64,000 bases of DNA from contig CAKTYZ010000017.1 of the NCBI GenBank assembly GCA_934635225.1, positions 357-64,356 of the forward strand, given 5' to 3'. This document shows positions 31,566-49,514 of this stretch, piece after piece (the first letter of the stretch is position 1; each line of letters opens with the position of its first letter). The translations under genes were made by a program, and so were the position numbers. This DNA comes from an uncultured Kiritimatiellota bacterium. Its GTDB lineage: Bacteria; Verrucomicrobiota; Kiritimatiellia; RFP12; UBA1067. The notes under the pieces are model-generated. The model did not search any database, was not told where the DNA came from, and saw nothing but the letters and a program-made list of their open reading frames with translations.

Positions 31566-31641
<76 letters not shown>

Positions 31642-39865: not shown

Positions 39866-39942
39866 GGGGCTGTAGCTCAACTGGATAGAGCATCAGACTA
39901 CGAATCTGAGGGTTGTGGGTTCGACTCCCGCCAGCCCCGCCA
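39866..39942 (+). tRNA. tRNA-Arg (anticodon ACG)
   Basis: A cloverleaf was folded by hand. The anticodon loop is ctACGaa and a 3' CCA is present. Confidence 0.85.
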
Positions 39943-39958
39943 ATTGAAAGCGCCAGAT

Positions 39959-40035
<77 letters not shown>

Positions 40036-40066
40036 AAAAGATCTGGTTCTGGCTTCAAGCCCTTGT

Positions 40067-40143
40067 CGGACCGTAGCGCAGCCTGGTAGCGCGTTTGCTT
40101 GGGGTGCAAAAGGTCACGAGTTCAAATCTCGTCGGTCCGACCA
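40067..40143 (+). tRNA. tRNA-Pro (anticodon GGG)
   Basis: A cloverleaf was folded by hand. The anticodon loop is ttGGGgt and a 3' CCA is present. Confidence 0.85.
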
Positions 40144-41029: not shown

Positions 41030-42100
41030 ATGAATATCCTTGGAATAGAAACGAGTTGTGACGAAACGGCGGCAGCCGTTGTGCGCGACGGGCGAGAAGT
41101 CCTCTCGAATGTCGTCTACACGCAGATTCCGCTTCATCAGCCTTATGGCGGCGTTGTGCCCGAGATTGCCTCTCGTGCGCACATCGAGAAGATTACGCAA
41201 GTCGTAGGTGACGCGATGAAGGGGCTGTCTGTTGATGCGGTCGCCGTGACTTACGGACCGGGGCTCTCGCCTGCGCTTATTGTCGGGCTTAACGCGGCGA
41301 AGGGGCTGGCGAAGGCCTTGGGCGTGCCGCTTCTCGGCATCAATCATTTGGAAGGGCATCTGCATTCGCCGTTCCTTTGGGATGTGCCCGAGGATGCCAC
41401 GCACGCGAGTCCGGACCCGCGCGAACTGGGTCCGGCGCTTGGACTCGTGCTTTCGGGTGGCAACACGATGTGGATAGACATGCCGGCCTACGGTCGTTAT
41501 GAGGTCATCGGTGAGACGCTGGACGATGCGGCGGGCGAGGCGTTCGACAAGGCCGCGAAGCTCCTTGGGTTGGGTTATCCAGGCGGACTCAAGATTGATC
41601 GGATGTCGCAGGCGTGGCATGAGCACGCGTCGGCAGATCAGTCGTACATTCCTTTCCCGAAGGGACGTCCGCGCGACGGCGTGACCGCATTGGCGGGGCT
41701 GCCTGCCGAACTGTGCGTCTCGTTCTCAGGGTTGAAGACGGCGCTTTTGCGCTATGTCCAGCAGCATCCCGAAGTCCGGATGGAGCCTGGCCTTTCGCAT
41801 GTTGTTGCGTCGTATCAAGAGGCAATTGTCCAGGCGGTTGCGGACAGGACACGCGCGGCCCTTCGCCGCAAGCGCTACAATGCATTCGTCTTCGGCGGCG
41901 GCGTCTCGCTCAATTCCCGTGTTCGCATGGCTCTGACGGACCTCTGCCGGGAAGCGGGCGTGCCGTTGCTGATGGCAAAGCCGAAATACACGGGCGACAA
42001 TGGCGCAATGATTGCCGGGCTGGCGTACTATCGGCGCAACCACGAGGCGGATGCGATGTCGCTGGACGTAGGCCCGTGTCTGCAGGTCGGAGGCGACTGA
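41030..42100 (+). CDS. tsaD: tRNA N6-adenosine threonylcarbamoyltransferase
   Basis: The N-terminus ILGIETSCDETAAAV and the segment HIEKI...GPGL match Kae1/TsaD. Confidence 0.85.
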   Translation: MNILGIETSCDETAAAVVRDGREVLSNVVYTQIPLHQPYGGVVPEIASRAHIEKITQVVGDAMKGLSVDAVAVTYGPGLSPALIVGLNAAKGLAKALGVPLLGINHLEGHLHSPFLWDVPEDATHASPDPRELGPALGLVLSGGNTMWIDMPAYGRYEVIGETLDDAAGEAFDKAAKLLGLGYPGGLKIDRMSQAWHEHASADQSYIPFPKGRPRDGVTALAGLPAELCVSFSGLKTALLRYVQQHPEVRMEPGLSHVVASYQEAIVQAVADRTRAALRRKRYNAFVFGGGVSLNSRVRMALTDLCREAGVPLLMAKPKYTGDNGAMIAGLAYYRRNHEADAMSLDVGPCLQVGGD

Positions 42101-42121
42101 GAGATATGGTATAATGTCCGC

Positions 42122-42778
42122 ATGAAGAGAATAGGCATTATCGGCGCCGGGCGATTCGGCATGTCGCTTGCGGAATCACTCTCGAACGCGGGAGCGGAAG
42201 TCGTCCTCATCGATCGGAACCGTCCCGCCATGCAGATGGCGAACGAGTTTGCGACGGCGCTTCAGGGTGACGCGACCCAGCCGCACGTCTTGGAGGAGGC
42301 TGGCTTTGGCGAATGTGATGTCGTTGTCGTGGCGATTGGCTCCAACATGGAGGCCTCGATGATGGCGACGGCGAACTGCAAGGAGCTGGGTGTCCCGAAT
42401 GTCGTCTCGAAAGCGACGAGCGAGCTTCACGGGAAAATCCTCAGACGCATTGGCGCGGATTCGGTCGTCTATCCGGATCGCGACTCGGCACACCGTTTGG
42501 CGCGCGCAATTGCGAACCATGACGTCATTGACTTCCTGGAGGTTTCCGAAGGTTATTCAATTGCGGAGATTGATGTGCCGGACGGCGTGCGCGGCAAGAC
42601 GCTGGCCGAGGCGGATCTCCGCCGAAAGACAGGCGTGACCGTCCTCTGCATTCGCCGCGCCGATGCAGGTCCCAAGAAGCCTCGCAAGGTGATTTTTCCG
42701 CAGGCCAGCGACATGATCGCGCCCGATGACCGGCTGATCGTCTTCGGCGAGACGAAGAAACTGGACGAACTCTCCTGA
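42122..42778 (+). CDS. K+ transport regulatory protein with TrkA-N and TrkA-C domains (KtrA/TrkA-like)
   Basis: The Rossmann motif IGIIGAGRFG is present, and the C-terminal domain has the motif (AEADL...LIVFGE). Confidence 0.7.
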   Translation: MKRIGIIGAGRFGMSLAESLSNAGAEVVLIDRNRPAMQMANEFATALQGDATQPHVLEEAGFGECDVVVVAIGSNMEASMMATANCKELGVPNVVSKATSELHGKILRRIGADSVVYPDRDSAHRLARAIANHDVIDFLEVSEGYSIAEIDVPDGVRGKTLAEADLRRKTGVTVLCIRRADAGPKKPRKVIFPQASDMIAPDDRLIVFGETKKLDELS

Positions 42779-42780
42779 CG

Positions 42781-44064
42781 ATGAGCCGACTTGTCATTCG
42801 AGGACGGAAGACGATTTCCGGTATGCATCGCGTTTCGGGGAACAAGAACGCGGCGTTGCCGATGATCGCCGCGACGTTTCTCACGAACGAGTCTGTGACA
42901 ATCCGCAATCTTCCTGCGATTGATGACGTGGCGCGGATGCTGGATGTCGCACGGAACTTTGGGGCACAGGTCGTGCGCGATGCGAAGTCGGATTCCGTCA
43001 CGATTACGGCGGCGCGGCTGAAGTCCGCCCGCATTTCGCCCGAACTTGCGGCGAAGATCCGCACGAGTTTCCTGTTCGCAGGTCCGTTGCTGGCGCGTCT
43101 CGGACGGGCGTCCTTGCCGCCGCCGGGGGGGGACGCGATTGGCCATCGGAGGCTCGACACGCATTTTGCCGGATTCAAGGCGTTGGGGGCGAAGGCATCC
43201 GTGGGCAAGAAGTCGCTCGCGCTTCGTGGAACGCTCAAAGGGACGAGGATCCTTTTGGACGAGGCATCCGTGACGGCGACTGAGAATGTCCTGATGGCTT
43301 CCGTTCTGGCGAAAGGTCAAACGGAGATCTACAACGCGGCGTGTGAACCGCACATTGTCGATCTCGCGAATATGCTTGTGGCGATGGGGGCAAAGATTTC
43401 GGGCGCGGGCACGAACCGTCTGCTTGTCGAGGGCGTGGAGTCCCTTCACGGATGCGAAGTGGCTGTTGGTTGCGACTACATTGAAGCGGGCAGTTATCTT
43501 GTCGCGGCGGCCGTGACGGGAGGCGACTTGACCTTGACGGGTATCGACCCCGAGCCGTTTCGCGTGCTGGAGACGGCGTTCGCGCGCTTCGGCGTCACAT
43601 GGACGATTGATGCGGCGGCGCGGACCTTGCGCTATACGCCGCGCAAGCGCCTTCGGATGAAGTATGACCTTGGCGACGCGATCCCGTCCCTGTCGGACGG
43701 CACATGGCCTGCGTTTCCGTCGGACCTCCTGTCGATTCTCATCGTCTTGGCCACACAGGCGCGCGGCACGTGTCTTTTCTTCGAGAAGATGTTCGAGTCG
43801 CGGCTCTATTTCGTCGATCATCTCCGGCAGATGGGAGCGAAGATCGTCCCGTGCGATCCGCATCGGATCGTTGTCACGGGCCCCGCTGCGCTCGCGGGAG
43901 GTACGGTGACGTCTCCGGACATACGTGCGGGCATCGCGTTGGTGATCGCCGCGCTCTGCGCAAAGGGCGAGACGACGATTCAGAATGCGGAATCGATTGA
44001 CCGAGGGTATGTCGCAGTCGAACGGGCGCTTGGTGCGCTTGGTGCGGACATCGAGCGAAAATGA
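42781..44064 (+). CDS. murA: UDP-N-acetylglucosamine 1-carboxyvinyltransferase
   Basis: The sequence LVIRGRKTISGMHRVSGNKNAALP matches MurA throughout. Confidence 0.85.
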   Translation: MSRLVIRGRKTISGMHRVSGNKNAALPMIAATFLTNESVTIRNLPAIDDVARMLDVARNFGAQVVRDAKSDSVTITAARLKSARISPELAAKIRTSFLFAGPLLARLGRASLPPPGGDAIGHRRLDTHFAGFKALGAKASVGKKSLALRGTLKGTRILLDEASVTATENVLMASVLAKGQTEIYNAACEPHIVDLANMLVAMGAKISGAGTNRLLVEGVESLHGCEVAVGCDYIEAGSYLVAAAVTGGDLTLTGIDPEPFRVLETAFARFGVTWTIDAAARTLRYTPRKRLRMKYDLGDAIPSLSDGTWPAFPSDLLSILIVLATQARGTCLFFEKMFESRLYFVDHLRQMGAKIVPCDPHRIVVTGPAALAGGTVTSPDIRAGIALVIAALCAKGETTIQNAESIDRGYVAVERALGALGADIERK

Positions 44065-44086
44065 CGACGGTGAAGAGGGCTGTTGA

Positions 44087-45142
44087 ATGAGACTTGTGCA
44101 GGCAGATGAAGAAGGACTGGCCGTTGCGGCGGACATGCTGATGAAAGGCGGCGTCATCGTGTTGCCGACGGACACGGTCTATGGGCTTGCGGCGCATCCC
44201 GACTGTTCCGAAGCCGTGGAACGGCTTTATGCGATCAAGTCGCGTGACGCAAAAAAGCCGATTGCGCTTCTGGCAAGCGATGCGTCCGGGGCAACAAGGT
44301 TCATCGGCGCAGACGCCGCGCACGTCGGGGCGAAGCGTTGGCCGGGCGCGTTGACCGTCGTGGCGCAGGGCGAGGGCGTGCGTGTGCCAGACCACGATTG
44401 GACGCGGCGGCTGATTGCACGGTGCGGCGGGGCCTTGCGCGTCACAAGTGCCAATCTGTCCGGACAACGCGCGGCGACGGATGCCGAAGAGGCTCTGAAG
44501 GCCGTTGGGCTTACTGCGGATCTTGTCGTGGACGACGGCGTTTCGCCAGGCGGTCTGGCTTCGACGGTCGTTCGGGTCTCAGGCGGGAGCCTCACGGTCT
44601 TGCGTGAGGGACCTGTGACGTTCTTGACGCTTGCGAGCGGTTCGCCGCGTCGGGCGAAGATCCTGCACGAACTGGGCGTTGATTTCGTCGTCGTCAAAAG
44701 CGATGCCAGGGAGGTGAGCATTCCGCATGATCCTGAGCGAACGGTGCGCGAGAACGCCTTGGCGAAGGGGCGTGCGGCTCACGCGGAGAAGGTCCTGAGC
44801 GCGGATACCATCGTCTGGTTTGACGGAAGGATCTATGGCAAGCCGCGTGACCTGGATGAGGCGAAGACGTATCTTCGGGAGTTGAGCGGGCGGGTTCACA
44901 CGGTCTTCACGGGCGTTGCGTATGACGGCGAGGTGAAGGTCGTTCGTTCGGACGTGAAGTTCCGCACGCTCTCGGATGGGCAGATTGACGACTATGTCGC
45001 ACGTGTGAAGCCGACGGACCGCGCCGGCGCGTATGACATCGATGAATCCGGGGATTTGATTGTCGAGTCTTACACGGGCAGCTACGAGAATATCATGGGG
45101 CTTCCCGTGGAGCCGCTGAAAGAATGGGGGATCGTGGGATGA
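44087..45142 (+). CDS. Fusion protein: an N-terminal L-threonylcarbamoyladenylate synthase domain (TsaC/YrdC) and a C-terminal Maf-like nucleoside-triphosphate pyrophosphatase domain
   Basis: The YrdC motif VLPTDTVYGLAA is at the N-terminus. Maf motifs (LASGSPRRAKIL...ADTIVWFDGRIYGKP...LSGRVHTVFTGVA) follow from residue about 200. Confidence 0.7.
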   Translation: MRLVQADEEGLAVAADMLMKGGVIVLPTDTVYGLAAHPDCSEAVERLYAIKSRDAKKPIALLASDASGATRFIGADAAHVGAKRWPGALTVVAQGEGVRVPDHDWTRRLIARCGGALRVTSANLSGQRAATDAEEALKAVGLTADLVVDDGVSPGGLASTVVRVSGGSLTVLREGPVTFLTLASGSPRRAKILHELGVDFVVVKSDAREVSIPHDPERTVRENALAKGRAAHAEKVLSADTIVWFDGRIYGKPRDLDEAKTYLRELSGRVHTVFTGVAYDGEVKVVRSDVKFRTLSDGQIDDYVARVKPTDRAGAYDIDESGDLIVESYTGSYENIMGLPVEPLKEWGIVG

Positions 45143-45486
45143 GACTTCGGTTGAACGGCCTTTCGGTTGCGTGCGTCATTGGAGACAGGCCTGACGAGCG
45201 CACGCGTCTTCAGGAGCTGCGCGTGGATGTCACATTGGATATCCCGACTGTCGCGTCTCAGTCGGACATCCTCGCGGATACGGTGGACTATGCCGCGTTG
45301 ACGGAGCGGATTCGCGCGGTGCTGGTCACGGCGAAATGTCAGATGATCGAATGTGCGGCGCGTCAGGTGCATGACGCCTGTGCGGAGGCCTGTTCCGCCG
45401 TGGCGGGGGCACGAGTTGTGGGCGTGACCATTACGAAGGTCGGGACGATTCCCGGGTTGGCGTCCGTCTCGGTGGATTATCCCTGA
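45139..45486 (+). CDS. folB: Dihydroneopterin aldolase
   Basis: The sequence [19 protein letters not shown]...DTVDYAAL matches FolB. The start codon overlaps the upstream stop codon. Confidence 0.75.
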
Positions 45487-45500
45487 TGAGGAGAGAGAAG

Positions 45501-45971
45501 ATGACGGTGGCGGAGAAATTGGTTGAACTCCTCAAGGTGCGCGGGCTGACGTGTGCAGCGGCGGAGAGTTGCACGGGAGGAGGCGTTGGCGCGGCGATTA
45601 CAGCGGTTCCGGGGTCAAGCGCGGTTTTCCTCGGTGGCATTGTCTCCTATTCGAATGCCGTCAAGCACGAGGTCCTCGGTGTCTCGCAGACGACTCTGGA
45701 GACGGTTGGCGCCGTCTCGCCAGAGACTGCGGCGCAGATGGCAGAAGGGGTGCGGCGTCTGATAAAGGCCGACCTTGCGATTTCTCTGACGGGCATCGCA
45801 GGTCCGGGCGGAGGGTCTGCCGAGAAACCCGTGGGTCTTGTCTGGTTTGGCCTTGCCACGCCGAGAGGCGTGCGTACCGAGAAGGCGATCTTTACGGGGG
45901 ACCGCGCGACAGTGCGGGCGAAGGCCGTCACGCACGCGCTGGGCATGTTGACCGTGGGCGCACTGGCATGA
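45501..45971 (+). CDS. CinA C-terminal-domain protein (PncC-type nicotinamide-nucleotide amidohydrolase)
   Basis: The motif [19 protein letters not shown] is present. The start was chosen at the ATG that follows a GAGGAG Shine-Dalgarno sequence. Confidence 0.7.
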
Positions 45972-47011
45972 AACGGCGAACGGCCATTCTTGCGGCAGGG
46001 GACTTTCCCGCAGTCGGCTCGGAGCCTGAGCGACTGTTGCGGGCGGCCACGCGCGTCGTCGCCTGCGACTCGGCGGCGATGGCCTATCGGCGGCGGTTTC
46101 GCCGTTGGCCAGATGTCGTCATTGGAGATCTGGACAGCTTGAATGTGGGTGACTGTCCGGAATTGGCACGGCGTTGCGTGCGGGTTTCTGACCAGGAGAC
46201 GAATGACCTTGCCAAGGCGCTCGACTTCTGCCGGGCCGAGGATCCGGACGGCTGGAAGGACGCAGTCGTCATTCTTGGCGCGACGGGCAAGCGTGAAGAC
46301 CATACGATTGGCAACGTCTATCGGGCGTTGGAGGCAGAAGTCCCGATTGTCAGCGAATTTGGAGCGTTTCTCCCCGTGCGCGGTCGGCTGACCTTTCGAA
46401 CGCAGAAGGATGTGGGCGTGTCCGTTTTCGCGGGCAGTCCGCAGACGCGCATGACTTCGCGCGGATTGCGCTGGAAACTGGACGGAGTGCGCTTTGACAA
46501 TCCCTACTGTGCGACGCTGAACCGTGCGTCGTCTGAAACAGTGACCGTGACGAGTACTCATCCTGCGTTCGCCTATGTCGCGCGACCCGAAGGCGCGGTA
46601 CGGGCTGTCGTTTCGCTTGGCTCCAATGTCGGTGCGCGCGCGGCTTATCTGCAGCGGGCTTTGTCGTTTCTGGCAAGACTGCCAAGGACGCGCTTGCTGG
46701 ACATAAGTTCGGTACGTGAGACCGAGCCGGTTGACGTGCCCGTCGAGTATGCTGCGCAGAAGTTCTTGAACCAGGCGGCGATTTTCGAGACGACGTTGGA
46801 CGCGCGGACGTTTGCGCAGGCGATGCACGCGGTCGAAGGCCGTCTTGGGCGCGTCCGAACCGTACGAAACGGTCCCCGCACGATTGACTTGGACCTCATT
46901 TCGTTTGGATCCGTGAAGATGGAGACGCCCGAGCTGACGCTCCCGCATCCTCGTGCGAAGATGCGCGCTTTTGTGCTGGACCCGCTGAAAGAACTCGGTT
47001 TGCGGCTCTGA
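45968..47011 (+). CDS. folK: Fusion protein: an N-terminal thiamine pyrophosphokinase-like domain and a C-terminal HPPK (FolK) domain
   Basis: The N-terminus carries TPK motifs (AAGDFP...[32 protein letters not shown]) and a thiamin-binding-like beta domain. The C-terminus carries HPPK motifs ([24 protein letters not shown]). Confidence 0.7.
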
Positions 47012-47015
47012 TTCG

Positions 47016-49205
47016 CTACTCGAAGATGCGGGAGAGGTCGCTGTTGTCGGCGGAGAGGACGAAGACGGGCGAGGGCACGGCGGCAAGGTCTGCCGTGAGG
47101 TGGGCGATGTAGTCGCCGTAATCGGATTGCGACTCTTCTTCTTTGGGCGGGCGTAGCCCAATGAATGAGAGCGTGGCGTCCGAGGAGCTTTGCGTGAGAA
47201 TCTCCGTGAAGGGGTTCCCCTTCGTATCAAGAATGCGCGTTTCGGTCACGATGCGTGCCGAGGCGAGGAAGGCCGTCAGTTGCGCTTGAGCCTGCTCGTG
47301 CGTATGGTTGTGTATGAGCATGTTGACGCGCAAGGGATGGCGACGCCACTTGTCGTCTCGACGGAGCAGGACGGCGAGCGCGAGCATCAGTGCGCCGTTG
47401 CCGCCGCCGCCGCGCCACCAGATGTCGATGAACCCGTCTTCGGGCGCGTGTCCAGCAGGGCCGATGGCGAGAACGTTCCGTCTTTCGCGTACGCAGGTCT
47501 TGACCAGTCCCGCGAACGCGGATGCATGGCCGCGTGCCGGAAGCCCGAAGAGAACGGTGTTGGGCACGAGGGGACCGAATCCGTAGGTGCGAAGCATTTC
47601 AGAAATGCCGGCCCAGATGTCATCCGAAGACTGTAAGTGCGGCACGAGGTCAAGGTCCATGTTCGTTCCTGTGCGCAGGACGGCGTCGCGGAGCGTGGGT
47701 TTGTCGAGGGGCGTTCCGGATTCGGGCAGGATGCTCGCAAGCGTCACGAAGCTGCGTCTTCCGGAAATGCCCTTTGCGAGTTCAATGAGGCGGGGGCAGG
47801 AGACGGGAAGACGAGAGAATACGAGGAGATTCGGTCTCCAGTTGCGTTCTGCGTGCGTGTCAGATGCGAGCCGCTGAAGGGCAAAGCGCACGAGCGCAGC
47901 CATGATGCCGGTGCGCAGGTCGCCGAATTGGACGCGGAGCTGCCGACGTTTGACGAGGCCGTAGATCGCCATCTCGCACGCGAGCGCGACAAAGGTCCAG
48001 CCGGGGCTGATCATGAACATTGCGCCCGTGCAGCCGGCGAAGCCGAGCAGGGGGAAGACGGCGCGGACGCGGAACGTCGGGCGCCATGAGGGGTTTGCGA
48101 GAAGTTCCTCAGCGGCCGCCACGAAGTTGAGAAGCGCGTAAGTCGAGAGGTTGAAAAGCGTGAGAATCGGCGCGATGACGTTGATGTCGCCCAATGCGAG
48201 GCCTGTGGCGGCGATGCCGAAGCAAAGGAGCGCAGACAGCCGAGGATCGTCGGTCTTGCCGAAGCCGCGCCCGAATGCGGAGGGCAGAAGGTGGTCGCGC
48301 GCGAGGGCCTGGAGGACGCGCGGGGCACAGAGGAAACTTCCGACGGCGCTGGAGAGAGTTGCCGCCCAGACGCCGAGCAGGATCAGCATCGGCCAGCGGG
48401 CGCACTTCTGGAGGAGCATTGTGTCTGCCCGAAGCCACGCCGCATCGGTCACGAACGCATGGAGGACGAGTGGTACCGTCATGTAGATGACGTAGCCCGT
48501 GAGGACGGCGGCAATCGTGCCAAGCGGAATGGACTTTCGCGGGTCTTTCAGGTCGCCGGACATGCCGAGGCCCGAAAGGATGCCGGTGACTGCGGGAAAG
48601 AAGACGGCGAAGACGGGCCAAAAGCCGAGCGTGGCGGTCGTGGGGACAGACCCCGGTGCGGGCGGCTCAGGCGCGTGTCCGAAGAAGAAGGAGACGAGCG
48701 AGAGGACGATGGCTCCCATGATGAAGTATTGGGACTTGAGGGCGAGATCGGCCGAGAGCGTCGAGACGAACGCGAGGATGCAGAGCGTGATGAGGCCGAC
48801 TGTCCGCACGTCCCAGCCCGAGACGATGGGAAGCCCGGATTGCGTCAGCGCTTCGGCGAAGCCCGCAGTGTAGAATGAGACGCCGATGGCTTGCGAAAGG
48901 GCGAGGGGAATGCCGAGCGCGGCTCCGGATTCGAGACCGAGCGAACGCGAGAGCATGAAGTACGCGCCACCGCCTTTCATGCGCATGTTGGTGGCGAGGG
49001 CCGAGATGGAGAGCCCCGTCAGAAAGGTGATGGCGCTGCCGATCGTCACGAGCGCGAGTGCGCCGGAGAGCCCGACGTTGCCGAGCATCCAGCCAAAGCG
49101 CAAATACATCACCACGCCGATAATCGTCAGGATGCTGGGCGTGAAAACGCCTTGAAAGGTGCCGAATGCGTATCCGCTTGTCTGTTTTGCGTCCGTTGTT
49201 GCCAT
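47016..49205 (-). CDS. Cation:chloride cotransporter (SLC12/CCC family) with a C-terminal regulatory domain
   Basis: An amino-acid-permease-type core of about 12 transmembrane helices is followed by the motif RPNLLVF. On the - strand a GGAGG Shine-Dalgarno sequence and a TGGTATAAT element lie upstream. Confidence 0.7.
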   Translation of the reverse strand: MATTDAKQTSGYAFGTFQGVFTPSILTIIGVVMYLRFGWMLGNVGLSGALALVTIGSAITFLTGLSISALATNMRMKGGGAYFMLSRSLGLESGAALGIPLALSQAIGVSFYTAGFAEALTQSGLPIVSGWDVRTVGLITLCILAFVSTLSADLALKSQYFIMGAIVLSLVSFFFGHAPEPPAPGSVPTTATLGFWPVFAVFFPAVTGILSGLGMSGDLKDPRKSIPLGTIAAVLTGYVIYMTVPLVLHAFVTDAAWLRADTMLLQKCARWPMLILLGVWAATLSSAVGSFLCAPRVLQALARDHLLPSAFGRGFGKTDDPRLSALLCFGIAATGLALGDINVIAPILTLFNLSTYALLNFVAAAEELLANPSWRPTFRVRAVFPLLGFAGCTGAMFMISPGWTFVALACEMAIYGLVKRRQLRVQFGDLRTGIMAALVRFALQRLASDTHAERNWRPNLLVFSRLPVSCPRLIELAKGISGRRSFVTLASILPESGTPLDKPTLRDAVLRTGTNMDLDLVPHLQSSDDIWAGISEMLRTYGFGPLVPNTVLFGLPARGHASAFAGLVKTCVRERRNVLAIGPAGHAPEDGFIDIWWRGGGGNGALMLALAVLLRRDDKWRRHPLRVNMLIHNHTHEQAQAQLTAFLASARIVTETRILDTKGNPFTEILTQSSSDATLSFIGLRPPKEEESQSDYGDYIAHLTADLAAVPSPVFVLSADNSDLSRIFE

Positions 49206-49295
49206 AAAGTCCTCCAACAACAAGATTATACCACAATCTTGAAGGAGCGGGCGAGATCCCCGACGGCGAGCGGATTGTGATATAATATAGGGACT

Positions 49296-49514
49296 ATGGA
49301 AGAGAAAATCAAAGCGAAACTCGAAGAGCTTCGCGCCGGGCTTCAGGCTGACGGTGGCGATCTCGAACTGGTGAAGATCGACGGCAAGGTCGTGTACCTG
49401 AAGCTCGTCGGGCACTGCGGCAGCTGTCCGTTTGCGATGATGACGCTCAAGCAGGGCATTGAAGTGGGGCTTCAGGAGATTGACCCCGAGATTACGGTCG
49501 AGAGGGTCGCATGA
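49296..49514 (+). CDS. NifU-like (Nfu) Fe-S cluster assembly domain protein
   Basis: The CxxC motif GHCGSCP lies in a 72-aa protein. Confidence 0.7.
   Translation: MEEKIKAKLEELRAGLQADGGDLELVKIDGKVVYLKLVGHCGSCPFAMMTLKQGIEVGLQEIDPEITVERVA

What the first reader, a model, noticed from the sequence alone, without database searches (positions are those of the whole stretch)
45968..47011. Fusion of a thiamine-pyrophosphokinase-like domain with HPPK (FolK)
A single ORF carries the TPK catalytic motifs (GDFP...[14 protein letters not shown]) and a thiamin-binding-like beta domain. It then carries a complete HPPK with the motifs [16 protein letters not shown] and LPHPR. Both enzymes transfer pyrophosphate from ATP to a hydroxymethyl or hydroxyethyl group. 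I am not aware of this fusion being described. It sits in a tight, overlapping operon of tsaC-maf, folB, a cinA domain and folK. The TPK-like half may have been repurposed for a pterin substrate, or it may couple thiamine salvage to folate synthesis.
Basis: partly seen in the sequence, partly recalled or inferred. Interest (0 to 1): 0.55.

Follow-up and report, generated by a model that had tools for sequence, protein, structure and literature searches.

The report
Fused thiamine and folate pyrophosphokinase gene
One gene of an uncultured gut bacterium joins two unrelated, apparently intact vitamin enzymes, thiamine pyrophosphokinase and the folate-pathway enzyme HPPK; the join is real and conserved but looks like a merger of neighbouring genes, not new chemistry.

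Summary
Window 45968-47011 (+) is one uninterrupted 347-aa ORF. It has a thiamine pyrophosphokinase (TPK) catalytic domain (res 22-121), a TPK substrate-binding beta domain (132-198) and a complete HPPK/FolK (213-343). All score above curated profile cut-offs.

It is not an assembly artefact. The identical protein sits on at least 23 independently assembled gut-metagenome contigs. At least 117 protein clusters at 53-99% identity share the architecture.

Every catalytic and substrate-binding residue I checked in both halves is invariant in 89 of 89 homologues, except D309 (88 of 89). The junction never varies in length. AlphaFold gives pLDDT 93 and pTM 0.90.

The TPK half belongs to the Bacteroides-type subfamily (PDB 2OMK). 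It shows no change that would suggest a pterin substrate.

In related gut Kiritimatiellia, tpk, folK, folB and maf share a shuffled neighbourhood. There the genes have fused repeatedly: HPPK-TPK in the reverse order, FolB-TPK and TPK-Maf. HPPK and TPK are also each fused to unrelated partners.

Most likely this is a bifunctional enzyme with two independent active sites, created by compaction of an operon. I found no description of it in the searchable literature, although IMG already auto-names it. It is a new domain architecture of known enzymes, of modest interest.

The parts
45968..47011 (+). Whole fused gene, 347 aa plus stop: TPK (catalytic and beta domain) joined to HPPK
   Evidence: The identical ORF is on at least 23 independent contigs. 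AlphaFold model: pLDDT 93.3, pTM 0.90.
45968..46330 (+). TPK catalytic domain (about res 1-121). Contains D34, the GDLDS motif (D54, D56), ND (N79, D80) and GATGKREDH (R109, D111, H112).
   Evidence: Pfam PF04263 at res 22-121. Aligned to 2omk and to mouse and human TPK1. These residues are invariant in 89/89 homologues.
46361..46585 (+). TPK substrate-binding beta-sandwich domain (about res 132-206). Contains the GLRW motif (W169) and the TLN motif (T183, N185).
   Evidence: Pfam PF21275 at res 132-198. W169 and N185 align with human TPK1 Trp202 and Asn219. Disease variants are reported at those two positions (PMC6679130). Foldseek match to 2omk with TM 0.77-0.82.
46586..46603 (+). Junction (about res 207-212, PEGAVR): a very short connection with no flexible linker
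   Evidence: No length variation between res 200 and 217 in 89 homologues. The beta strands of the two domains almost abut in the model.
46604..47008 (+). HPPK (FolK) domain (res 213-347). Contains [24 protein letters not shown] and LPHPR.
   Evidence: Pfam PF01288 and TIGR01498. End-to-end alignment with B. anthracis and S. aureus HPPK. Foldseek rmsd of 1.0-1.3 A to E. coli, S. aureus and B. anthracis HPPK for most chains.
45486..45971 (+). Upstream gene: CinA C-terminal (PncC-type) domain protein. Its stop overlaps the start of the fusion gene (ATGA).
45124..45486 (+). folB (dihydroneopterin aldolase), the pathway step immediately before HPPK
   Evidence: Pfam FolB at 65.5 bits. It scores below the NCBIfam equivalog cut-off.
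44087..45142 (+). TsaC/YrdC-Maf fusion gene, in the same operon
   Evidence: Pfam Sua5_yciO_yrdC at res 17-175 and Maf at res 180-345.

Best explanation
The gene encodes a bifunctional diphosphotransferase made of two unrelated, independently acting modules. The N-terminal module (res 1-206) is a Bacteroides-type thiamine pyrophosphokinase. It would convert salvaged thiamine plus ATP to thiamine diphosphate plus AMP. The C-terminal module (res 213-347) is a canonical HPPK/FolK. It would convert 6-hydroxymethyl-7,8-dihydropterin, the product of the FolB encoded two genes upstream, to its diphosphate for dihydropteroate synthesis.

The fusion arose when two genes of an ancestral cofactor and housekeeping neighbourhood (tpk, maf, folB, folK) came to abut in a compact operon with overlapping genes and lost the intervening stop. 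It gives fixed 1:1 co-expression. No substrate passes between the two sites.

Shown here: domain identity, intact catalytic and substrate-binding residues, purifying selection on both halves, a rigid conserved junction, reality of the ORF, and its confinement to gut-associated relatives annotated as Kiritimatiellia. Inferred: both activities, the substrates, and the absence of cross-talk.
For: - Both halves exceed curated family cut-offs.
- The TPK half matches PDB 2omk, the B. thetaiotaomicron TPK, at E 1e-23 over res 6-202. It aligns with mouse and human TPK1 so that D34, D54, D56, D80, R109 and D111 correspond to mouse D46, D71, D73, D100, R131 and D133. Trp202 and Asn219 are sites of human disease variants (PMC6679130).
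- All of these residues are present in 89/89 fusion homologues. The HPPK residues corresponding to E. coli N10, T42, N55, R82, R84, R92, D95, H115, R121 and F123 are also 89/89; the D97 equivalent (D309) is 88/89.
- Mean identity is 64% for the TPK half and 67% for the HPPK half, so the two halves are under equal constraint.
- AlphaFold gives pLDDT 93.3 and pTM 0.90. Foldseek matches the N half to TPKs and the C half to HPPKs at about 1 A rmsd.
- The TPK pocket residues are the same in fused and stand-alone TPKs of the clade; apart from Trp169 (Tyr there), the motifs also match Bacteroidales TPKs. In Bacteroides the gene (tnr3) sits in TPP-riboswitch operons with the thiamine transporter pnuT (bioRxiv 10.1101/867226). 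A TPK-ThiD fusion also exists in the subfamily (P0243).
- The origin from a shared neighbourhood shows in the relatives. They carry TPK|Maf|FolB (L003); HPPK-x-Metallophos-TPK|Maf (L007); CationEfflux-HPPK|TPK-Maf (L088); and HPPK-TPK as a single ORF (L010, L011, L085).
- Relatives of this HPPK are also fused to a cation-efflux protein, a response regulator, ThiF, 5-FTHF cyclo-ligase and a His-phosphatase domain. Relatives of this TPK are also fused to Maf, IspF and a GDSL lipase. Fusion with whatever lies next door therefore appears common in this lineage.
Against: - There is no biochemical evidence for either activity.
- No thiamine transporter, thiamine biosynthesis gene or TPP riboswitch lies in the 64-kb window or near tpk in 17 related loci. 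The thiamine assignment therefore rests on homology alone.
- TIGR01378 is passed by only 0.2 bits.
- tpk has joined folate genes three times: TPK-HPPK, HPPK-TPK and FolB-TPK. Pure chance would not obviously predict that, which hints at some selective link.
- The invariant junction and the high pTM suggest a fixed inter-domain interface. That is unexpected for two fully independent modules.
- TPKs work as homodimers, with the active site at the dimer interface. I could not test whether the C-terminal HPPK is compatible with that dimer.
Confidence: 0.78

Rival explanations
1. Functionally coupled fusion. The TPK-like module has been drawn into pterin or folate metabolism. It might pyrophosphorylate a pterin-related or other non-thiamine alcohol, or it might sense thiamine or TPP and regulate the attached HPPK. 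On this view, selection for the coupling explains why tpk repeatedly joins folK and folB.
For: - There were several separate fusion events with folate genes in related lineages: TPK-HPPK (at least 117 clusters); HPPK-TPK in the reverse order (7 clusters, 91 member sequences, one on 43 contigs); and FolB-TPK (2 clusters).
- tpk, folK, folB and maf stay near each other although their order is shuffled.
- No thiamine context or TPP riboswitch was found.
- The junction has a fixed length and the model has a high pTM.
- From memory and not tested here: the archaeal HPPK MptE has been described as TPK-like, which would be a precedent for TPK-fold enzymes acting on pterins.
Against: - The substrate-pocket and catalytic residues are the same in fused and unfused TPKs of the clade. 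They are also the same as in Bacteroidales TPKs linked to pnuT and TPP riboswitches, except that the Trp is Tyr there.
- A complete canonical HPPK is present, so no pterin kinase is missing.
- Stand-alone TPKs are nested inside the fusion clade, with unrelated neighbours (L002, L006).
- Relatives of both genes are also fused with many unrelated partners.
- There is no Pfam MptE-like hit at E <= 0.01.
Confidence: 0.12
2. One half is a decaying or non-catalytic remnant. It would have been retained only as a scaffold after an accidental read-through fusion.
For: - The TPK equivalog score is marginal (76.6 bits against a cut-off of 76.4).
- HPPK loop-3 Trp (E. coli W89) is replaced by Asn.
Against: - All key residues of both halves are invariant in 89 sequences that have diverged to 53% identity, apart from one substitution at D309. 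The two halves are equally conserved.
- Asn at the W89 position also occurs in HPPK-domain hits from Paenibacillus, Brevibacillus, Dolosigranulum and other genomes. From my own knowledge, W89 is not essential in E. coli HPPK.
- Both domains are modelled with pLDDT above 90.
Confidence: 0.06
3. The single ORF is an artefact: a sequencing or assembly frameshift, or a chimera, that merges two separate genes.
For: Many relatives do have the two genes separate, even on different contigs (L006 and L028; L003 and L031).
Against: - The identical 347-aa protein is on at least 23 contigs from independent samples and assemblers.
- At least 117 clusters share the architecture.
- The junction has a fixed length in 89 homologues.
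Confidence: 0.01

Closest known systems
Bacteroides-type thiamine pyrophosphokinase (tnr3; PDB 2OMK, B. thetaiotaomicron; Pfam PF04263 + PF21275; EC 2.7.6.2)
   Same: - N-terminal 206 residues: about 35-40% identity, E 1e-23.
- Same two-domain fold, TM 0.77-0.82.
- Same motifs: GDxDS, (Q)[14 protein letters not shown](I/L)GN, GLxW/YxL and TLN.
   Different: - Here the TPK is fused to HPPK.
- It is not linked to pnuT, an outer-membrane thiamine transporter or a TPP riboswitch.
- It has Trp, as eukaryotic TPK1 does, where Bacteroidales have Tyr in GL.(W/Y).L.
Canonical monofunctional HPPK/FolK (E. coli 1HKA/1Q0N, S. aureus 3QBC, B. anthracis 8SK1; EC 2.7.6.3)
   Same: - C-terminal 135 residues: up to 43% identity (Foldseek, B. 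anthracis 8SK1) and about 1 A rmsd.
- All Mg, ATP and pterin-binding residues are present.
- It lies next to folB.
   Different: - It has no start codon of its own and is attached to the end of a TPK.
- Loop-3 Trp89 is Asn.
Known multifunctional folate enzymes that contain HPPK: FolB-FolK (S. pneumoniae SulD, 2CG8), HPPK-DHPS (plants, Plasmodium, Francisella 3MCO), fungal FOL1 (2BMB)
   Same: HPPK is one module of a longer polypeptide. The fusion partner is encoded next to it in other organisms.
   Different: In those enzymes the partners catalyse consecutive steps of the same pathway. Here the partner belongs to a different vitamin pathway, so no intermediate can be passed on.
Reverse-order HPPK-TPK fusion in sister gut Kiritimatiellia (P0161, P0309-P0314; loci L010, L011, L085)
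   Same: The same two enzyme families: about 46-49% identity in the TPK part and 58-61% in the HPPK part.
   Different: The domain order is opposite and the context differs (followed by an Asp/Glu racemase gene). It is therefore a separate fusion event.

Membership tests
Thiamine pyrophosphokinase (TPK; EC 2.7.6.2; TIGR01378, PF04263 + PF21275) | Scores above the curated profile cut-offs for the catalytic and the substrate-binding domain | tested here: met
   PF04263 at 63.4 bits (cut-off 30.7). PF21275 at 33.8 bits (cut-off 27). TIGR01378 at 76.6 bits (cut-off 76.4, marginal)..
Thiamine pyrophosphokinase (TPK; EC 2.7.6.2; TIGR01378, PF04263 + PF21275) | Four conserved acidic residues of the Mg/ATP site (mouse D46, D71, D73, D100) plus the GxGGRxD(H/Q) motif | tested here: met
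   D34, D54, D56, D80, R109, D111 and H112 align to these residues and are invariant in 89/89. The mouse numbering is from my own knowledge.
Thiamine pyrophosphokinase (TPK; EC 2.7.6.2; TIGR01378, PF04263 + PF21275) | Thiamine-pyrimidine binding residues of the beta domain (human Trp202, Asn219) | tested here: met
   W169 and N185 align with them and are invariant. Disease variants Trp202Gly and Asn219Ser are listed in PMC6679130.
Thiamine pyrophosphokinase (TPK; EC 2.7.6.2; TIGR01378, PF04263 + PF21275) | Two-domain TPK fold | tested here: met
   The model (pLDDT 93) matches 2omk with TM 0.77-0.82. It also matches human, mouse, yeast and Bacillus TPKs.
Thiamine pyrophosphokinase (TPK; EC 2.7.6.2; TIGR01378, PF04263 + PF21275) | Homodimer with the active site formed across the dimer interface | not testable with these tools
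   Only a monomer model could be made. Whether the appended HPPK is compatible with the dimer is unknown.
Thiamine pyrophosphokinase (TPK; EC 2.7.6.2; TIGR01378, PF04263 + PF21275) | ATP:thiamine diphosphotransferase activity | not testable with these tools
   This needs an enzyme assay or complementation.
Thiamine pyrophosphokinase (TPK; EC 2.7.6.2; TIGR01378, PF04263 + PF21275) | Supportive but not defining: genomic link to thiamine transport or biosynthesis, or to a TPP riboswitch | tested here: not met
   No TPP riboswitch in the window or in 17 related loci. No thiamine genes in the window.
HPPK / FolK (EC 2.7.6.3; TIGR01498, PF01288) | Scores above the curated profile cut-offs over the full domain | tested here: met
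   PF01288 at 109.4 bits (cut-off 25.7). TIGR01498 at 113.9 bits (cut-off 54.1). Profile positions 1-126 of 128 are covered.
HPPK / FolK (EC 2.7.6.3; TIGR01498, PF01288) | Catalytic and ligand-binding residues (E. coli N10, T42, N55, R82, R84, R92, D95, D97, H115, R121, F123) | tested here: met
   N220, T252, N268, R295, R297, R304, D307, D309, H327, R333 and F335 are present and are 88-89/89 conserved. W89 is Asn301 here. The E. coli numbering is from my own knowledge.
HPPK / FolK (EC 2.7.6.3; TIGR01498, PF01288) | HPPK alpha/beta fold | tested here: met
   rmsd of 1.0-1.3 A over about 135 residues to most E. coli, S. aureus and B. anthracis HPPK chains.
HPPK / FolK (EC 2.7.6.3; TIGR01498, PF01288) | Pathway context (other folate genes nearby) | tested here: met
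   folB lies two genes upstream in the same operon. folP, folE and folC are not in the window.
Archaeal MptE-type HPPK (PF01973), considered as a precedent for a TPK-like pterin kinase | Sequence match to the MptE-like family | tested here: not met
   No such Pfam hit at E <= 0.01 for the whole protein. The resemblance of MptE to TPK is recalled from memory, and I could not retrieve the paper.

The most novel reading that the evidence does not exclude
The repeated joining of this TPK to folate enzymes (TPK-HPPK, HPPK-TPK, FolB-TPK) may reflect a real functional link in gut Kiritimatiellia. The TPK-like module might act on a pterin-related or other non-thiamine substrate. Alternatively, it might bind thiamine or TPP and allosterically control the first committed pyrophosphorylation of folate synthesis through the rigid inter-domain interface.
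Probability: 0.1. Interest if true: 0.65.

Novelty: new variant of a known kind. Interest (0 to 1): 0.33.

Why it matters
- The fusion joins two of the few known ATP-dependent diphosphotransferase types (EC 2.7.6.2 and 2.7.6.3). The two have unrelated folds and belong to different vitamin pathways.
- For annotation: NCBI names at least one homologue only as HPPK. The thiamine function is then lost in metabolic reconstructions of these uncultured gut bacteria. That could produce a false prediction that they cannot activate thiamine.
- For evolution: the clade is a clear small case study. One gene neighbourhood (tpk, maf, folB, folK) gave rise to fusions in both orders and with several partners. 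This is a caution against reading every 'Rosetta stone' fusion as a pathway link.
- If the minority reading were right, the protein would show cross-talk between B1 and B9 metabolism. I found no evidence for that.

Tried and rejected
- Frameshift or assembly artefact: rejected.
- TPP or THF riboswitch near the gene or near tpk in relatives: none found in the window or in 17 loci. Only tRNAs, a tmRNA and one AdoCbl-II riboswitch turned up.
- Thiamine or further folate genes in the 64-kb window: none. The other genes are housekeeping or unrelated to vitamins, for example gyrA, gatB, rpoN, ispG, dapL, proA, alr, der, a GH10 glycosidase and an A2M-like protein.
- Literature on a TPK-FolK fusion or on vitamin metabolism of Kiritimatiellia: nothing relevant.
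- The paper on archaeal MptE as a TPK-like HPPK could not be retrieved. That point therefore remains unverified memory.
- A search for a paper listing the TPK active-site residues failed. I used HMMER alignments to the mouse and human structures, plus the disease-variant table.
- The afdb50 fold library was unavailable. I could not check whether UniProt/AFDB holds full-length structural matches.
- The check on whether Asn at HPPK loop 3 is specific to the fusions was biased, because the locus scan pattern itself contained NGPRTID. It shows only that the variant occurs in many phyla.
- Whole-genome presence of thiL, thiE, thiC, pnuT or a second TPK in this organism could not be examined with the tools.
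Full report

Window 45968-47011 (+) reads through as 347 codons followed by a stop. The stop-to-stop frame opens earlier, at 45551. However, the ATG at 45968 overlaps the TGA of the upstream cinA-domain ORF as ATGA. It is the start chosen by independent gene callers on other assemblies, and it matches the N-termini of the homologues.

- Pfam places TPK_catalytic at residues 22-121 (63.4 bits), Thi_PPkinase_C (PF21275) at 132-198 (33.8 bits) and HPPK at 214-343 (109.4 bits). All are above the gathering scores.
- NCBIfam gives folK TIGR01498 at 113.9 bits (cut-off 54.1). It gives thi_PPkinase TIGR01378 at 76.6 bits (cut-off 76.4), which only just passes.
The HPPK loop reads [12 protein letters not shown], not [12 protein letters not shown].

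The ORF is not an artefact. The identical protein is in the public collection on 37 contigs. I read 23 of these, from different samples and assemblers, including human gut and Hadza metagenomes. In the four places shown, and in the similar places grouped with them, the gene order is TsaD, TrkA, MurA-like, TsaC-Maf, FolB, CinA, TPK-HPPK.

**2. What are the two halves?**

The N-terminal half is closest to PDB 2omk, the Bacteroides thetaiotaomicron thiamin pyrophosphokinase (E 1e-23, residues 6-202). It is more distant from mouse and human TPK1. In those alignments:

- D54 and D56 sit on the GDxDS aspartates (mouse D71, D73).
- D80 sits on D100.
- R109 and D111 sit on R131 and D133.
- W169 and N185 sit on Trp202 and Asn219 of the beta domain.

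The mouse numbering is from my own knowledge. Trp202Gly and Asn219Ser are listed as human TPK1 disease variants in PMC6679130.

The C-terminal half aligns end to end with B. anthracis, S. aureus and E. coli HPPK. It keeps the residues corresponding to E. coli N10, T42, N55, R82, R84, R92, D95, D97, H115, R121 and F123. Only the loop-3 Trp89 is Asn, and Asn at this position also occurs in HPPK-domain hits from Paenibacillus, Brevibacillus, Dolosigranulum and other genomes.

An AlphaFold2 model built on 89 homologues has mean pLDDT 93.3 and pTM 0.90. Foldseek against the PDB matches the N half to TPKs (2omk, TM 0.77-0.82). It matches the C half to HPPKs, most of the top chains at 1.0-1.3 A rmsd. 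No solved chain covers both halves.

**3. Is each half under selection?**

In an alignment of 89 fusion proteins at 53-76% identity to the window protein:

- The TPK half averages 64% identity to the window protein and the HPPK half 67%.
- Every key residue listed above is present in 89/89 sequences, except D309 (88/89).
- The segment between residues 200 and 217, which spans the junction, never changes length.

Both modules are therefore maintained, and the connection between them is short and fixed.

**4. How widespread is the fusion, and where?**

A search of 5.8 billion protein clusters returned 120 listed hits at 53-99% identity. At least 117 of them carry both enzymes. IMG names some of them 'HPPK/thiamine pyrophosphokinase'. 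One NCBI MAG protein (Kiritimatiellae bacterium) is named only as HPPK.

In an exhaustive HMMER search of 1.84 billion representatives clustered at 50% identity, the whole family collapses into one full-length representative, P0067. Apart from the reverse-order P0161, no more distant protein with both domains appears among the best 150. The architecture is therefore confined to one narrow lineage.

Among GTDB species representatives, the same-order fusion was found only in L001. Many Kiritimatiellia MAGs from rumen, ruminant gut and human gut carry the two genes separately, sometimes on different contigs. The taxonomy of the window itself is inferred only from these neighbours.

**5. Related arrangements**

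- P0161 and loci L010, L011 and L085 encode a single ORF with the opposite order, HPPK-TPK. This form comprises 7 clusters and 91 member sequences, one of them on 43 contigs.
- P0238 and P0315 are FolB-TPK fusions, found on contigs from separate samples.
- P0175 (locus L088) is TPK-Maf, preceded by a CationEfflux-HPPK fusion.
- L003 has TPK|Maf|FolB. L004 has TPK|Maf. L007 has HlyIII-HPPK-x-Metallophos-TPK|Maf.
- L002 has Metallophos-TPK and no folate genes.

A rough NJ tree of the TPK halves gives the following picture:

- The TPK-HPPK fusions fall in one clade, with two stand-alone TPKs nested inside it.
- The HPPK-TPK and TPK|Maf forms fall in the sister clade.
- FolB-TPK branches deeper.
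- The Bacteroidales TPKs form the outgroup.

HPPK relatives of this lineage also occur fused to a response regulator, ThiF, an epimerase fragment, a Tle1-like domain, 5-FTHF cyclo-ligase and a histidine-phosphatase domain. TPK relatives also occur fused to IspF, a GDSL lipase and ThiD. Some of these may be gene-calling or assembly artefacts, because I did not verify each one.

**6. Interpretation**

The simplest reading is that tpk, folK, folB and maf shared a neighbourhood in the ancestor of these gut Kiritimatiellia. Loss of intervening genes and local rearrangement brought different pairs into contact. In operons where starts and stops overlap, a small change then merges neighbours. The TPK-HPPK merger became fixed in one sub-clade.

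The product should be a bifunctional enzyme with two independent sites. One site activates salvaged thiamine. The other performs the step after FolB in folate synthesis.

- The pocket and catalytic residues are the same in fused TPKs and in stand-alone TPKs of the clade.
- Apart from the Trp, which is Tyr in Bacteroidales, they also match the Bacteroidales TPKs. In those the gene tnr3 lies in TPP-riboswitch operons with pnuT (bioRxiv 10.1101/867226).
- A canonical HPPK is already present in the same protein.
- There is no match to the archaeal MptE-like family.

**7. What keeps the alternative alive**

- No thiamine context or TPP riboswitch was found near tpk in the window or in 17 related loci.
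- tpk joined folate genes three separate times.
- The junction is rigid.

I therefore leave about 10-12% for some real coupling, either a changed substrate or allosteric control. I could not examine whole genomes for thiL, thiamine transporters or a second TPK. I could not model the TPK dimer, and there is no biochemistry.

**8. Novelty and score**

I found no paper that describes a TPK-HPPK fusion. The 2007 comparative-genomics survey of folate genes lists several fusions and notes folK copies in non-folate (pantothenate) operons. It does not mention thiamine (PMC1971073).

Both enzymes are well known, and automatic pipelines already recognise both domains. This is a new domain architecture of known enzymes. 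It is useful for annotation and as an example of fusion driven by gene neighbourhood, but it is not a new kind of system. Interest: 0.33.

Noticed in passing
window 44087-45142 (+): A TsaC/YrdC (t6A synthesis) domain and a Maf nucleotide pyrophosphatase domain are fused in one 351-aa ORF, directly upstream of folB. In relatives, Maf is instead separate or fused to TPK (P0175). Maf stays close to folB, folK and tpk in several loci (L003, L004, L007, L088). Speculatively, a Maf-type NTP pyrophosphatase next to folB could serve as the dihydroneopterin-triphosphate pyrophosphatase of these organisms.
   Followed up: partly
P0009, P0015, P0022 (alignment A1, columns about 80-145 and 440-544): Some fusion homologues carry 40-100-aa insertions after the GDLDS motif, and also C-terminal extensions. 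Both are built from a recurring peptide such as PPCLPSSITSVLSESN. This looks like a repeated DNA element inserted in frame, within or at the end of the gene.
   Followed up: no
L028 9443-10840 (+); L005 2628-4481 (+); L088 4001-5293 (+): Close HPPK relatives are fused to other partners: the C-terminal part of 5-formyl-THF cyclo-ligase, a histidine-phosphatase domain, and a cation-efflux transporter. HPPK in this lineage seems unusually prone to merging with whatever lies next to it. Some cases may be ORF-calling artefacts, because I used stop-to-stop frames.
   Followed up: partly
L007 11214-11286 (+): An AdoCbl-II (B12) riboswitch sits immediately after TPK|Maf and in front of a TonB-dependent receptor gene in a related Kiritimatiellaeota MAG.
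   Followed up: no
P0316, P0317: TPK homologues at 69% identity to the TPK part of the FolB-TPK protein carry a YgbB/IspF (MECDP synthase) domain. This is another cross-pathway fusion of this TPK.
   Followed up: no
window 41030-47011 (+): Seven genes of unrelated function run head to tail with overlaps or gaps of at most about 25 nt: tsaD, trkA, a murA-like gene, tsaC-maf, folB, cinA and tpk-folK. No convincing internal promoter or terminator was found. The operon ends convergently against an SLC12-like or amino-acid-permease-like transporter gene (47016-49415, -).
   Followed up: partly
window 45124-45486 (+): The FolB protein passes the Pfam threshold (65.5 bits) but falls below both NCBIfam folB cut-offs (52.3 bits against 72.15; 44.5 bits against 45.05). 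It is therefore a divergent dihydroneopterin aldolase.
   Followed up: no
window 39866-40140 (+) and 31566-31638 (+): There is a cluster of three tRNA genes at 39866-40140, upstream of the tsaD operon, and one more tRNA at 31566-31638.
   Followed up: no
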